A stretch of DNA of 64,000 bases. Origin: Escherichia coli (lineage in GTDB: Bacteria; Pseudomonadota; Gammaproteobacteria; Enterobacterales; Enterobacteriaceae). A program made the position numbers and the translations under genes. Where the stretch lies: assembly GCF_965641715.1 (NCBI RefSeq), contig NZ_OZ282453.1, one strand, 5' to 3'. The stretch's first letter is position 1; each line of letters begins with the position of its first letter. The notes under the pieces were generated by a model. It was given only the letters and a program-made list of their open reading frames with translations. It did not search any database and was not told where the DNA came from. Of this stretch, positions 18,918 to 22,324 are shown one piece after another.

Positions 18918-21493
18918 CGTCCACCTCCGGAGAACAGGCCACCATCACGCATCTGTGTCTGAATTTCATCACGGGCACCCTTGCGGGCCATGTCATACAC
19001 CGCCTTCAGAGCAGCCGGACCTATCTGCCCGTTCGTGCCGTCGTTGTTAATCACCACATGGTTATTCTGCTCAAACGTCCCGGACGCCTGCGACCGGCTG
19101 TCAGCCAGACTGCCCGGTGTACCGACATAACCACCGGTGGCATAGCCGCGCATCAGCCGGTAGAGATTCCCCACGCCAATCCGGCTGGTTGCCTCCTTCG
19201 TGAAGACAAATTCACCACGGTGAACAATCCCCGCTGGCTCATATTTGCCGCCGGTTCCCGTAAATCCCCCGGTCGCAAAATGGAATTTCGCCGCAGCGGC
19301 CTGAATGGCTGTACCGCCTGACGCGGATGCGCCGCCACCAACAGCCACGCCAATGGCGCTGCCGATACTCCCGACAATCCCCACCATTGCCTGCTTAAGC
19401 AGAATTTCTGTCATCATGGACAGCACGGAGCGGGTGAAGCTGCGCCAGTTCTGCTCACTGCCGGTCAGCATCGCCGCCATATTCTGTGCAATACCATCAA
19501 AGGTCTGCGTGGCTGCACTTTTTACCTGCGACATACTGTCCGTGGCGCTCTCTTCCCACTCACTCCAGCCGGACTTCAGGCCTGCCATCCAGCTCCCGCG
19601 AAGCTGGTCTTCAGCCGCCCAGGTCTTTTTCTGCTCTGACATGACGTTATTCAGCGCCAGAGGATTATCGCCATACTGTTCCTTCAGGCGCTGTTCCGTG
19701 GCTTCCCGCGCTGCCTGCCGGTCAGTCAGCCCCCGGCTTTTCGCATCAATGGCGGCCCGTTTTGCCCGTTGCTGCTGTGCGAATTTATCCGCCTGCTGCG
19801 CCAGCGCGTTCAGGCGCTCCTGATACGTAACCTTGTCGCCAAGTGCAGCCAGCTGGCGTTTGTACTCCAGCGTCTCATCTTTATGCGCCAGCAGGGATTT
19901 CTCCTGTGCAGACAGCTGGCGACGTTGCGCCGCCTCCTCCAGTACCGCGAACTGACTTTCTGCCTTCCACAAATCCCGGCGCTGCTGGCTGATTTTCTCA
20001 TTCGCTCCGGCATGCTTCTCCAGCATCCGGAGTTCTGCCTGAAGCGTCAGCAGGGCAGCATGAGCACTGTCTTCCTGGCGATCGCCTGCAGACACTTTCA
20101 CGCCGGACTGCTTCGGCTTTTTCAGCGTCGCTTCATAATCCTTTTTCGCTGCCGCCATCAGCGTGTTGTAATCTGCCTGCAGGATTTTCCCGTCTTTCAG
20201 TGCCTTATTCAGTTCTTCCTGACGGGCGGTATATTTCTCCAGCGGCGTCTGCAGGCGTTCGTAAGCCTTCTGCGCCTCTTCGGTATATTTCAGCCGTGAT
20301 GCCTCAGACTCGGCCCAGTCCTTTGCTGCCATCTCTCTGGCCTTTTCAAGATCGGCCTGCAACGTGGCGGCTGAAAGCCCAAGTTGCGCATTCGCTCTGT
20401 CCTCCCATGCTCCCCGGAGATTGGCAAGAAATGCTGAGGTTTTACCGCGCCGGTGGCTCCGGCTCTGATACCACTGCCATTTTTTGTCCGCCTCATCAAA
20501 AGCCTTTTCTGCTTTCTCCAGCATTCCCTGGGCAGTGTCCGGGCGACCAATATCCAGCACCGAATCCCACATGGATTTGAATGCCCGTGCTGTCCTGTCT
20601 GCCCAGGTCTCCAGCGTGCCCATGTTCTCTTTCAGGCGGCGGGTCTGGTCATCAAACCCTTTCGTTGCGGCCTCGTTCGCCGCCTGCAATGCCCCGGCTT
20701 CATCTCCGGAACGCTGCAACTGAGCAACATACGCAATCTGCTCCGCCGTCACGTTATGGAACTGACGTGCCATCGCTGTCAGTCCCGACGTCGGGTCTGT
20801 GGTCAGCTTCCCGAAGGCTTCAGCGACCTTGTCCACCTCCACGCCGGATGCAGAGGAGAAACGCGCCACACTCTGGCTGATCGCCTCAAACTGCTCACCA
20901 CCACGCACACCGGCATTCACCAGCGCCGTCAGTGACTCGCTGGTCTGGTTAAACGTCAGCCCTGCCGCCTGCCCGGCTCTGGACAGGACCAGCATGCGAT
21001 CTGCCGTCAGACCCGACTGATTGCCGGAAAGGACCAGCGTTTTGTTGAAATCGGACAGGGTTGAGTTGCCCTGATACCAGGCATACGCCAGCGCACCGGT
21101 CGCCACTGCCAGCGAGGTGGCCCCGACCATCGGCAGGGTGATCGCACCGGCAAGTCCCCTGAACATGGGGATCATACCGCCGAAGGAGTCCTTCACCTGA
21201 CCACCCTGTTGCAGCAGGATCAGCCACGGACTCTGCCCGCCTGCAAGCTGCGTGGCCACGTCGGTGAACTGTGCAGGAAGCATACGCATGGCGGCTTTAT
21301 ACTGTCCGACGGAAATCCCCGCTTTCTGTGCAGCCAGCGCCTGCCGGTTCATTGACTGTTCAACGACTGCCGCTGTTTTTTTCGCATCACTTTCCGTACC
21401 GGAAAAATGACGCCTGACTCTGGCCATCTGCTCGTCAAATCTGGCCGCATCCAGACTTAAATCAACGACCAGATCGCCTACCGGTTCAGCCAT
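18914..21493 (-). CDS. H: Tail tape-measure protein H
   Basis: 859 aa; matches lambda H in sequence and position. Confidence 0.96.
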   Translation of the reverse strand: MAEPVGDLVVDLSLDAARFDEQMARVRRHFSGTESDAKKTAAVVEQSMNRQALAAQKAGISVGQYKAAMRMLPAQFTDVATQLAGGQSPWLILLQQGGQVKDSFGGMIPMFRGLAGAITLPMVGATSLAVATGALAYAWYQGNSTLSDFNKTLVLSGNQSGLTADRMLVLSRAGQAAGLTFNQTSESLTALVNAGVRGGEQFEAISQSVARFSSASGVEVDKVAEAFGKLTTDPTSGLTAMARQFHNVTAEQIAYVAQLQRSGDEAGALQAANEAATKGFDDQTRRLKENMGTLETWADRTARAFKSMWDSVLDIGRPDTAQGMLEKAEKAFDEADKKWQWYQSRSHRRGKTSAFLANLRGAWEDRANAQLGLSAATLQADLEKAREMAAKDWAESEASRLKYTEEAQKAYERLQTPLEKYTARQEELNKALKDGKILQADYNTLMAAAKKDYEATLKKPKQSGVKVSAGDRQEDSAHAALLTLQAELRMLEKHAGANEKISQQRRDLWKAESQFAVLEEAAQRRQLSAQEKSLLAHKDETLEYKRQLAALGDKVTYQERLNALAQQADKFAQQQRAKRAAIDAKSRGLTDRQAAREATEQRLKEQYGDNPLALNNVMSEQKKTWAAEDQLRGSWMAGLKSGWSEWEESATDSMSQVKSAATQTFDGIAQNMAAMLTGSEQNWRSFTRSVLSMMTEILLKQAMVGIVGSIGSAIGVAVGGGASASGGTAIQAAAAKFHFATGGFTGTGGKYEPAGIVHRGEFVFTKEATSRIGVGNLYRLMRGYATGGYVGTPGSLADSRSQASGTFEQNNHVVINNDGTNGQIGPAALKAVYDMARKGARDEIQTQMRDGGLFSGGGR

Positions 21494-21920
21494 ACCGGAC
21501 TCCTCCTGCGATCCCTTCTGATACTGTCATCAGCATTACGTCATCCTCCGTCATGCCCGCCACATCCGGGGAAGCGGGGATAACTTCATTCCCGTCCGGG
21601 TCAAAGCGGACGCCTCCGGCAAGCCCTGCCGCTTTCTGCATCAGCACATCATCTTCAGGCTCTTCGTCAGCCTCACGCCGGTTCAGCAGACTGAAATCCA
21701 GCGGATGCATATCCGGATCGCTGAAAAACAGGCTGAGCACGGTGTACGTCAGCCCGGAAAAGTGCATATCCAGCAGAACATCATGAAAATAATGGGTACT
21801 GTAAAAGCGGTGCCAGTCGGCATACTCCGTGGATGACATCCCGGCAAGCATGGCGCGCCAGTCGGGTCGCCCCATCTCACGCGCCAGTTTCAGGGCAAAA
21901 CTCAGCTCACCGTCGAACAC
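21486..21920 (-). CDS. T: T reading frame, expressed as the G-T fusion by -1 frameshifting
   Basis: -1 frame ORF overlapping the 3' end of G; slippery heptamer GGGAAAG on the minus strand (plus 21923..21929) as in lambda. Confidence 0.85.
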   Translation of the reverse strand: MFDGELSFALKLAREMGRPDWRAMLAGMSSTEYADWHRFYSTHYFHDVLLDMHFSGLTYTVLSLFFSDPDMHPLDFSLLNRREADEEPEDDVLMQKAAGLAGGVRFDPDGNEVIPASPDVAGMTEDDVMLMTVSEGIAGGVRYG

Positions 21921-22324
21921 TTTCCCGCAGAAACAGGCTCTGCAGGCCCGGCGTCATCTGCCTGTTCAGGTGCATCATTCACAACAAACTCAGACATACC
22001 GGACAGACGCATTACCACATTTTCAGCCTGAGCAATTGCCTCTGTGGGCCAGGTGGTAAGCACTTCCTGCTCAATTTGTTTAACGGCTTCATTCATGGAT
22101 GGCATCTTTGTCTTCTGCGGATGGTTATGCCACAGGGACATCGCCACCAGAAAAGCACCGGTTCTGACGAGATCTTCCACGCTCACCTGTCGATTGACAC
22201 TGGAGCCCGCCTGTTCTGCCTGTCGTTTCAGCAGGGCGAGATGCTCAATACGCTGCAGGGCTGACAGTTCAGAAAGCGTGACGCTCACACCGTTATATTC
22301 AAATGATTCGGTTTTCAGGAACAT
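21902..22324 (-). CDS. G: Tail assembly chaperone G
   Basis: 140 aa MFLKTESFEYNGVSVTLSELSALQRIEHLALLKRQ... matches lambda G. Confidence 0.95.
   Translation of the reverse strand: MFLKTESFEYNGVSVTLSELSALQRIEHLALLKRQAEQAGSSVNRQVSVEDLVRTGAFLVAMSLWHNHPQKTKMPSMNEAVKQIEQEVLTTWPTEAIAQAENVVMRLSGMSEFVVNDAPEQADDAGPAEPVSAGKCSTVS
21923..21929 (-). promoter_or_regulatory. Programmed -1 ribosomal frameshift slippery site (G GGA AAG) for G/GT
   Basis: Reverse complement of ctttccc at 21923..21929, inside the 3' end of G and in the G/T overlap. Confidence 0.8.

What the first reader, a model, noticed from the sequence alone, without database searches (positions are those of the whole stretch)
21486..22324. 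Conserved G/GT programmed -1 frameshift
The slippery heptamer GGGAAAG is present at the end of G with the T frame in -1, as in lambda. This supports an intact tail assembly pathway.
Basis: partly seen in the sequence, partly recalled or inferred. Interest (0 to 1): 0.2.

Follow-up and report, generated by a model that had tools for sequence, protein, structure and literature searches.

The report
Lambda-type G/GT tail-chaperone frameshift site
This is the well-known ribosomal "slip" signal that lambda-like phages use to make a small amount of a longer tail-assembly helper protein, found intact in an E. coli prophage; it is ordinary and already explained.

Summary
On the minus strand, gene G (22324→21902, 140 aa) carries GGGAAAG at 21926→21920 in the register G GGA AAG. 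That is 15 nt before the G stop codon. The T frame (21920→21486, 144 codons) is open in −1, and a slip gives a 279-aa G-T fusion. The geometry is the same as in phage lambda to the base: heptamer at offset 398 in G, and a join at 405 nt. The DNA aligns to lambda without gaps and is identical to it from 18 nt upstream of the heptamer to 64 nt downstream.

The heptamer alone is not statistically rare in this window. The evidence is homology and conservation. G and T match Pfam PF06894 and PF06223. The pair lies between the major tail gene V and the tape-measure gene H. In 77 of 79 related viral loci the site keeps the same register and spacing. It is invariant in 40 distinct sequences, while only 9% of the 45 columns upstream are invariant.

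I found no conserved downstream RNA structure and no upstream SD-like stimulator. All 19 structural genes from Nu1 to J are uninterrupted, so the "intact tail assembly pathway" reading is supported at the sequence level. Actual frameshifting and prophage inducibility remain untested.

Verdict: already known, low interest.

The parts
21902..22324 (-). Gene G: tail assembly chaperone gpG, 140 aa (zero-frame product)
   Evidence: ORF and translation. Pfam PF06894 Phage_TAC_2, E=7e-56, covering 125 of 126 profile positions. 86.4% aa identity to lambda gpG over 140/140 residues.
21920..21926 (-). Slippery heptamer G GGA AAG (X XXY YYZ in the G frame)
   Evidence: Identical position (offset 398 in G) in lambda. 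Invariant in 40 distinct related sequences. Same register in 77 of 79 loci.
21902..21904 (-). G stop codon TGA, 15 nt after the heptamer; bypassed by ribosomes that slipped
   Evidence: The same spacing is seen in 77 loci.
21486..21920 (-). T frame (-1 relative to G): 144 codons plus stop, read only as the C-terminal extension of G
   Evidence: Pfam PF06223 Phage_tail_T, E=2e-14. 98.6% aa identity to lambda T. G matches positions 1-142 and T positions 140-285 of the single 290-position profile phrog_32165, a family of G-T fusions.
21486..22324 (-). G-T fusion coding region: complement(join(21920..22324, 21486..21920)), 279 aa, junction ...PVSAGK|VFDGELSF...
   Evidence: Built. Same geometry as lambda join(9711..10115, 10115..10549), derived. 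It is annotated as a two-piece joined CDS in phage 434 record OL657226.
22340..23080 (-). Gene V, major tail tube protein (binding partner of the T domain), immediately upstream
   Evidence: 97.2% identity to lambda gpV over 246 aa. Pfam PF16461 and Big_2.
18914..21493 (-). Gene H, tape measure protein (binding partner of the G domain), immediately downstream. Its ATG overlaps the end of T by 8 nt.
   Evidence: 859-aa ORF. 91.5% identity to lambda gpH, which is 853 aa. Pfam PF06791 and PF09718. The overlap is visible in the sequence...GGTATGGCTGA.

Best explanation
This is the lambda-type programmed -1 ribosomal frameshift site of the tail assembly chaperone genes G and T, carried by a lambda-like prophage at the Rac attachment locus of an E. 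coli chromosome.

Most ribosomes translating G read GGA-AAG, continue for five more codons and stop, making gpG (140 aa). A small fraction slip back one base on G GGA AAG. In lambda this fraction is about 4%, giving a gpG:gpGT molar ratio of roughly 30:1. The P-site tRNA-Gly re-pairs from GGA to GGG, and the A-site tRNA-Lys (anticodon mnm5s2UUU) re-pairs from AAG to AAA. These ribosomes then read GTG-TTC-GAC... in the T frame and make the 279-aa fusion gpGT.

The G parts of both proteins coat the tape measure protein H. The T part of the rare gpGT recruits the major tail protein V, so the tail tube polymerises around H. Neither protein ends up in the virion.

Shown here: sequence, register, frames, homology, synteny and conservation. 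Inferred from lambda: the slip itself, its rate and the chaperone roles.
For: Anatomy: G GGA AAG in the zero frame, 15 nt before the G stop, with the -1 frame open for 144 codons and a 279-aa fusion.

Identity with the experimentally characterised site: gapless DNA alignment to lambda and phage 434. The window is identical to lambda from alignment column 381 to column 469, i.e. from 18 nt upstream of the heptamer to 64 nt downstream. The offset is the same, 398.

Family membership: PF06894 (G) and PF06223 (T) are both above Pfam's gathering score. G and T hit the two halves of one fusion profile, phrog_32165.

Synteny: V-G-T-H, as in lambda.

Selection on the nucleotides: 77 of 79 IMG/VR relatives keep the register and spacing, including loci only 61-75% identical in G. 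The heptamer is 100% invariant in 40 distinct sequences, while the codon just after it varies (TGT, TCT, CAT, CGT, TAT) and only 9% of the 45 upstream columns are invariant.

Context: 3,712 of 5,426 complete E. coli genomes carry this region, annotated as chaperone G and assembly protein T.

Mechanism from the literature: PMC3296357 (about 96% zero frame; dependence on tRNA-Lys U34 thiolation), PMC5009743 (30:1 ratio; G binds H, T binds V; neither is in virions), and PMC7618472 (G_GGA_AAG). These cite Levin 1993 and Xu, Hendrix and Duda 2004, 2013 and 2014.
Against: There is nothing in the sequence against it. The limits are these. No expression data exist, so frameshifting in this prophage is inferred, not shown. 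The heptamer is common by chance (7 observed against 8.1 expected), and generic geometry scans give false positives in the same window, so the case rests on homology. The G part is noticeably diverged from lambda (86% aa, with a patch at nt 119-157), so the exact ratio or partner fit could differ. I found no conserved downstream stimulator: fold z = -1.78, and 0 of 31 predicted pairs show compensatory change. This fits a low-efficiency site, but it means there is no independent RNA-level support.
Confidence: 0.95

Rival explanations
1. T is an independent gene translated from its own start codon (GTG at 21918-21920), as the separate 'T' CDS in RefSeq annotations implies. The heptamer would then be incidental.
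For: RefSeq lambda and PGAP E. coli records annotate T as a stand-alone CDS starting at that GTG. A GTG and a downstream ATG (21875) do exist in the T frame.
Against: There is no Shine-Dalgarno-like motif in the 25 nt upstream. The only purine run, GGGA, ends 3 nt before the GTG, which is too close. The heptamer is invariant at synonymous positions across 40 distinct sequences, which an incidental sequence would not be. Carefully annotated records join G and T (phage 434), and a PHROG family consists of the fusion. The literature describes T as made only as gpGT by frameshifting (PMC5009743, PMC3296357).
Confidence: 0.02
2. The site is intact in sequence but functionally silent. The prophage would be cryptic or not inducible, so the frameshift signal is a well-preserved relic rather than a working part of a tail assembly pathway.
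For: The prophage sits at the Rac locus (uspF/ompN on one side, intR/ttcA on the other), where K-12 carries a defective prophage (my own knowledge). tfa is only a 32-codon remnant. The cosN 12-mer differs from lambda at 5 positions. No lambda-like cI, cro, N, O, P, Q, S or R was detected by tblastn; these could simply be non-lambda alleles.
Against: All 19 structural genes from Nu1 to J are full-length without stops. Integrase, excisionase-side genes, the bet/exo/gam recombination genes, holin-side ORFs and terminase are present. A related cosN variant occurs in the isolated phage PhiR46_1. Side fibres are dispensable in lambda. Such complete conservation of about 20 kb of late genes is hard to keep without selection. 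This rival concerns activity, not the identity of the feature.
Confidence: 0.02
3. The long product arises by transcriptional slippage (RNA polymerase adding or dropping a base) rather than by ribosomal slippage.
For: Transcriptional slippage is used in some phage tail chaperone genes and bacterial genes (reviewed in PMC5009743).
Against: The site has only runs of three G and three A. Known transcriptional slippage needs much longer homopolymer runs (my own knowledge and PMC5009743). In lambda the frameshift rate responds to tRNA-Lys modification, which points to the ribosome (PMC3296357).
Confidence: 0.01

Closest known systems
Bacteriophage lambda G / G-T programmed -1 frameshift (Levin, Hendrix & Casjens 1993; Xu, Hendrix & Duda 2004, 2013, 2014)
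   Same: Same heptamer, register, offset in G (398), distance to the G stop (15 nt) and join geometry. Same lengths: G 140, T frame 144, GT 279 aa. Same V-G-T-H synteny. The DNA is identical from 18 nt upstream of the heptamer to 64 nt downstream.
   Different: The G domain is only 86% identical, with a diverged patch at G codons ~40-53. T is 98.6% identical, and H is 6 aa longer. The element is a prophage at the Rac (intR/ttcA) locus rather than at attB-lambda.
G/GT of other lambdoid phages and prophages (434, ev099, PhiR11_1, Stx-converting phages, E. coli prophages)
   Same: 95-100% DNA identity over the 1-kb region. The prophage in E. coli EC416 is 100% identical. The region is present in 3,712 of 5,426 complete E. 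coli genomes.
   Different: None relevant. This copy is one allele of a very common gene pair.
Conserved tail-assembly-chaperone frameshifts of other long-tailed phages (e.g. HK97, P2 E/E+E', Mu, mycobacteriophages; Xu et al. 2004)
   Same: Two overlapping ORFs between the major tail and tape measure genes, with a low-level frameshift giving a short and a long chaperone (PMC5009743).
   Different: Those phages have unrelated sequences, often other slippery motifs, and sometimes a different frameshift direction or transcriptional slippage. Here the sequence is directly homologous to lambda.
E. coli dnaX -1 frameshift (A AAA AAG)
   Same: A -1 slip on an X XXY YYZ heptamer whose A-site codon AAG is read by tRNA-Lys(UUU).
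   Different: dnaX reaches about 50% efficiency using an upstream SD-like element and a downstream hairpin (my own knowledge). Here no SD-like motif and no hairpin at stimulator spacing were found, consistent with a few-percent site.

Membership tests
Lambda-type G/GT tail assembly chaperone -1 PRF | Two overlapping ORFs located between the major tail protein gene and the tape measure gene | tested here: met
   V (22340-23080), G (21902-22324), T (21486-21920) and H (18914-21493) are all on the minus strand in lambda order.
Lambda-type G/GT tail assembly chaperone -1 PRF | Upstream ORF is a gpG homologue | tested here: met
   PF06894, E=7e-56, 187.8 bits against a cutoff of 27. 86.4% identity to lambda gpG, full length.
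Lambda-type G/GT tail assembly chaperone -1 PRF | Downstream ORF is a gpT homologue in the -1 frame relative to G | tested here: met
   PF06223, 54 bits against a cutoff of 25.9. 98.6% identity to lambda T. Frame relation -1.
Lambda-type G/GT tail assembly chaperone -1 PRF | Canonical slippery heptamer X XXY YYZ (G GGA AAG) in the zero frame, inside the G/T overlap and shortly before the G stop | tested here: met
   Offset 398 of G, codons GCG GGA AAG, 15 nt before TGA. Identical to lambda.
Lambda-type G/GT tail assembly chaperone -1 PRF | Slip site conserved among relatives beyond what the protein sequences require | tested here: met
   77 of 79 loci keep the register and spacing. The heptamer is invariant in 40 distinct sequences while neighbouring codons vary. 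The two exceptions keep the heptamer but have upstream indels.
Lambda-type G/GT tail assembly chaperone -1 PRF | T lacks independent translation initiation | tested here: inconclusive
   No SD-like motif in the 25 nt upstream of the GTG, but absence of initiation cannot be proved from sequence.
Lambda-type G/GT tail assembly chaperone -1 PRF | A few percent of ribosomes actually shift, giving gpG and gpGT at about 30:1 | not testable with these tools
   Needs protein detection or a reporter assay. Known for lambda (PMC3296357, PMC5009743).
Lambda-type G/GT tail assembly chaperone -1 PRF | Both products are required for tail assembly and absent from virions | not testable with these tools
   Genetic and biochemical property, established for lambda only (PMC5009743).
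Stimulated -1 PRF (dnaX or viral type, with a downstream structure or upstream SD) | Stable RNA hairpin or pseudoknot 5-9 nt downstream of the heptamer, or an SD-like element upstream | tested here: not met
   Downstream 127-nt fold z = -1.78, with 7 of 200 shuffles folding at least as well. The only strong hairpin starts about 33 nt downstream. 0 of 31 consensus pairs show compensatory change, and there is no SD-like motif upstream.

The most novel reading that the evidence does not exclude
The most novel reading not excluded is that this lineage tunes the gpG:gpGT ratio differently from lambda. Its G domain is clearly diverged (86% against 98.6% for T). The prophage also carries its own tRNA-Gly(UCC) (34782-34856, minus strand), which decodes GGA, the P-site codon of the slippery heptamer. 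Phage-supplied tRNA could then alter slippage or pausing at the site. The evidence leans against this. The tRNA belongs to a family spread across many unrelated phages. GGA is simply about 3.6 times more frequent in the late genes than in the sampled host genes, which gives an ordinary codon-supply explanation.
Probability: 0.03. Interest if true: 0.4.

Novelty: already known. Interest (0 to 1): 0.05.

Why it matters
It matters little beyond annotation. The site confirms that this prophage has the full lambda-type tail assembly gene set, and that G and T should be annotated as G plus a joined G-T frameshift product rather than as two separate genes. RefSeq/PGAP records of the same region still list T as a stand-alone CDS. 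It adds no new biology: the same region is in about two thirds of complete E. coli genomes.

Tried and rejected
(1) Statistical rarity of the heptamer: rejected as evidence, with 7 observed against 8.1 expected.

(2) A generic slip-site scan of the whole window gave 4 hits against 1.07 in shuffles. Two of the other three hits lie in out-of-frame or antisense ORFs inside H (20657) and stf (10526). The third, at 36140, was not examined. Geometry alone does not discriminate.

(3) Downstream stimulatory RNA: the fold z-score is -1.78, and the consensus fold of 28 distinct sequences has 0 compensatory pairs and 17 of 31 invariant pairs. This gives no support, and the test is weak because the T coding sequence is so conserved.

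(4) Upstream SD-like stimulator: none found.

(5) Antisense ORFs inside G/T (e.g. 21833-22264 +, 143 aa): not conserved, being interrupted in 24 of 67 distinct relatives, so rejected as genes.

(6) Solved structures for G or GT: none by sequence.

(7) Primary papers (Xu 2013, tried as PMID 23851014 and as PMC3762263) are not held. Levin 1993 was not looked up. I relied on reviews and on Maynard 2012.

(8) The two loci that seemed to lack the arrangement (L005, L075) keep the heptamer but have a 4-nt insertion or a 1-nt T-run deletion upstream. These are sequencing errors or decayed copies.

(9) The exact lambda cos 12-mer is absent. It turned out to be a cosN variant, not a deletion.
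Full report
**What is at the coordinates.** The reported span 21486-22324 holds two overlapping reading frames on the minus strand. Gene G runs 22324→21902 (140 aa, ending ...PVSAGKCSTVS*). 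A second frame is open from 21953 to 21486. GGGAAAG occurs once in G, at window 21926→21920. Its offset in G is 398, so the zero-frame codons are GCG GGA AAG TGT, the canonical X XXY YYZ register. The heptamer ends 15 nt before the G stop TGA (21904→21902). The second frame is −1 relative to G. After a slip it is read as GTG TTC GAC..., giving 144 further codons and a 279-aa fusion with the junction ...PVSAGK|VFDGELSF....

**Is it more than chance?** The heptamer alone is not: the window has 7 copies against 8.1 expected from shuffles. I also wrote a generic scan for an in-frame slippery heptamer near the end of a long ORF with a −1 extension of at least 80 codons. It found 4 sites against 1.07 in dinucleotide shuffles, with a maximum of 5. 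Two of the other three hits lie in antisense or out-of-frame ORFs inside H and stf, and the third was not examined. Geometry alone therefore does not discriminate well. The case rests on homology and conservation.

**Homology and synteny.**
- G matches Pfam PF06894, [quoted passage not shown] (E=7e-56).
- The second frame matches PF06223, "Minor tail protein T".
- In PHROGs, G hits positions 1-142 and T positions 140-285 of a single 290-position profile (phrog_32165), which is a family of G-T fusions.
- The gene upstream is the major tail protein V, and the gene downstream is the tape measure protein H.
- Against lambda NC_001416 the 839-nt G-T segment aligns without a gap. The window and lambda are identical from 18 nt upstream of the heptamer to 64 nt downstream.
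- Lambda's heptamer is at 10109, the same offset of 398 in G. This gives the known join(9711..10115, 10115..10549).
- Amino-acid identity to lambda is 86.4% for G and 98.6% for T.
- Phage 434 record OL657226 annotates the joined two-piece CDS as "gene GT tape measure protein chaperone frameshift product". RefSeq lambda and PGAP E. coli records list T as a separate CDS starting at the GTG, which is an annotation convention.

**Conservation.** A scan of IMG/VR with the fusion protein returned 80 loci.
- In 79 of them G and T could both be placed. In 77 of these the heptamer is in the same register, 15 nt before the G stop, with T in −1. This includes loci only 61-75% identical in G.
- The two exceptions (L005, L075) still contain the heptamer. 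They have a 4-nt insertion or a 1-nt deletion upstream that breaks the G frame, through sequencing error or decay.
- Across 40 distinct sequences the heptamer is 100% invariant. Only 9% of the 45 columns upstream are invariant, and the codon right after the heptamer varies (TGT, TCT, CAT, CGT, TAT). This indicates selection on the nucleotides themselves.
- The region occurs in 143 phage records and in 3,712 of 5,426 complete E. coli genomes. A prophage of strain EC416 is 100% identical.

**Mechanism.** The mechanism is inferred from lambda.
- About 96% of ribosomes stay in frame and make gpG. The rest slip −1 on the heptamer and make gpGT. Both lysine codons are read by tRNA-Lys(UUU), and hypomodification of its U34 raises frameshifting and lowers phage yield (PMC3296357; PMC7618472).
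- The 30:1 ratio is crucial. The G parts bind the tape measure protein and the T part binds the major tail subunit. Neither protein is present in virions (PMC5009743, citing Levin 1993 and Xu, Hendrix and Duda 2004, 2013, 2014).
- I looked for extra stimulators. The 127 nt from the heptamer onward fold no better than expected (z = −1.78).
- A consensus fold of 28 distinct relatives has 0 of 31 pairs with compensatory change. The only strong hairpin starts about 33 nt downstream, which is too far for a canonical stimulator. No SD-like motif lies upstream.
- This fits a minimal, low-efficiency site. Because the flanks are identical to lambda and the host species is the same, a lambda-like rate is the reasonable expectation.

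**Other strand.** Antisense ORFs exist inside G/T (e.g. 21833-22264 +, 143 aa). The longest antisense frame is interrupted in 24 of 67 distinct relatives, some of them close, so these are not genes.

**The "intact tail assembly pathway" claim.** I tested it directly.
- Every lambda structural protein from Nu1 to J has a full-length, single-segment match in the window. Identity is 81-100%, except FI and G at 86-87%.
- All of these ORFs are free of internal stops.
- H is 859 aa against 853 in lambda, and J is 1165 aa against 1132.
- The side tail fibre gene stf is an open 800-aa ORF (9915-12317) whose C-terminus matches a tail-fibre PHROG to its end.
- The fibre assembly gene tfa is only a 32-codon remnant. 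Side fibres are dispensable in laboratory lambda (my own knowledge).
It says nothing about expression.

**Context.**
- The prophage spans roughly 9.7-53.8 kb of the window. uspF, ompN and nifJ lie on the tail side, and intR and ttcA on the other. This is the Rac attachment locus.
- Lambda-like gam, bet and exo are present.
- The cohesive-end 12-mer at 32019-32030 is GGGCGTCAGGCG, against GGGCGGCGACCT in lambda. The adjacent cosB/Nu1 side is 97% identical to lambda.
- The same cosN variant is in the EC416 prophage. The isolated phage PhiR46_1 has a related variant. I therefore do not read the variant as a defect.

**Rivals.**
- Independent initiation of T at the GTG is contradicted by the lack of an SD, the synonymous-site invariance of the heptamer, and the literature.
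- Transcriptional slippage is unlikely on runs of only three bases.
- A silent relic in a non-inducible prophage cannot be excluded from sequence. That rival concerns activity, not what the feature is.

**Comparison and verdict.** This is a member of the lambda G/GT frameshift family. Every sequence-level defining feature that could be settled from sequence was met. Absence of independent T initiation was inconclusive, and the functional features cannot be tested here. It does not belong to the stimulated −1 PRF class (dnaX type). It is already known, very common in E. coli, and of low interest.

Noticed in passing
window 7033-8166 (+), stop at 7711-7713: The host porin gene ompN carries an in-frame TAG after codon 226 (...[15 protein letters not shown]...). 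Strain PEC41 has CAG at the same place. ompN is therefore probably a pseudogene in this strain, or this is a sequencing error.
   Followed up: partly
window 34782-34856 (-): The prophage encodes a tRNA-Gly with anticodon UCC, which reads GGA, the first codon of the slippery heptamer. The same tRNA family is found in many unrelated phages. GGA is used 10.1 times per 1000 codons in the late genes against 2.8 in three host genes of the window. Codon supply is the ordinary explanation, and a link to frameshift tuning is untested.
   Followed up: partly
window 32019-32030 (-): The cohesive-end (cosN) 12-mer is GGGCGTCAGGCG, differing from lambda GGGCGGCGACCT at 5 positions. Terminase A is 99.5% identical to lambda and the cosB side 97% identical. 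The EC416 prophage has the same variant, and the isolated phage PhiR46_1 has GGGCGGAAGGCG.
   Followed up: partly
window 9722-12317 (-): The side tail fibre gene stf is an open 800-aa ORF (9915-12317) whose C-terminal part matches phrog_6722 to its end. The tail fibre assembly gene downstream is reduced to a 32-codon remnant (9722-9817). PGAP calls the near-identical stf in PEC41 and EC416 a truncated pseudogene.
   Followed up: partly
window 38755-39687 (+) and 39684-40238 (+): Two overlapping ORFs (310 and 184 aa) lie on the strand opposite to the late genes, inside the prophage. They have full-length matches to PHROGs of unknown function (15676, 15250) but no Pfam or PADLOC hit. They are possibly a moron or an accessory gene pair.
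   Followed up: partly
window 48124-51851 (+): The recombination module is mosaic. A 661-aa ORF has only the N-terminal Exonuc_VIII (RecE) domain (48124-50109). It is directly followed by lambda-like gam (partial match), bet (97%) and exo (96%).
   Followed up: partly
window 21902-22324 (-), especially G nt 119-157 (window ~22168-22206): G is much more diverged from lambda than T (86.4% against 98.6% aa), with a concentrated patch of substitutions. Many relatives show the same pattern (G about 85-88%, T about 97-99%). The G domain binds the tape measure H, which is also more diverged (91.5%) than V (97%), so co-variation is a possibility.
   Followed up: no
window 18914-21493 (-): The tape measure protein H is 859 aa against 853 in lambda (a 6-aa insertion). 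If tail length scales with H length as in lambda (my own knowledge), the tail would be marginally longer.
   Followed up: no
loci L005 (1861-1872) and L075 (about 1895-1902): Two IMG/VR relatives keep the heptamer but have indels just upstream: a 4-nt insertion creating a stop, and a 1-nt deletion in a T run. These break the G frame, through sequencing errors or decaying prophages.
   Followed up: partly
window 35274-36077 (-): An AraC-family transcriptional regulator gene (267 aa) sits inside the prophage between the nin/Q-side genes and the tRNA and lysis genes. It is also present in PEC41 and is a likely moron.
   Followed up: no
window 52576-54798 (+): The prophage integrase (intR-like, 411 aa) abuts ttcA, the Rac attachment locus. 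ttcA is itself a tRNA thiolation gene. Maynard et al. tested it and found no effect on lambda replication (PMC3296357). The adjacency is a coincidence of location, not a functional link.
   Followed up: no
RefSeq records NC_001416, NZ_AP027404, NZ_CM168023 (loci L001, L003, L085): Public annotations list T as a separate CDS starting at the GTG inside the slip site, instead of a joined G-T product. The phage 434 record OL657226 has the join. Automated annotation of this window would probably repeat the error.
   Followed up: yes
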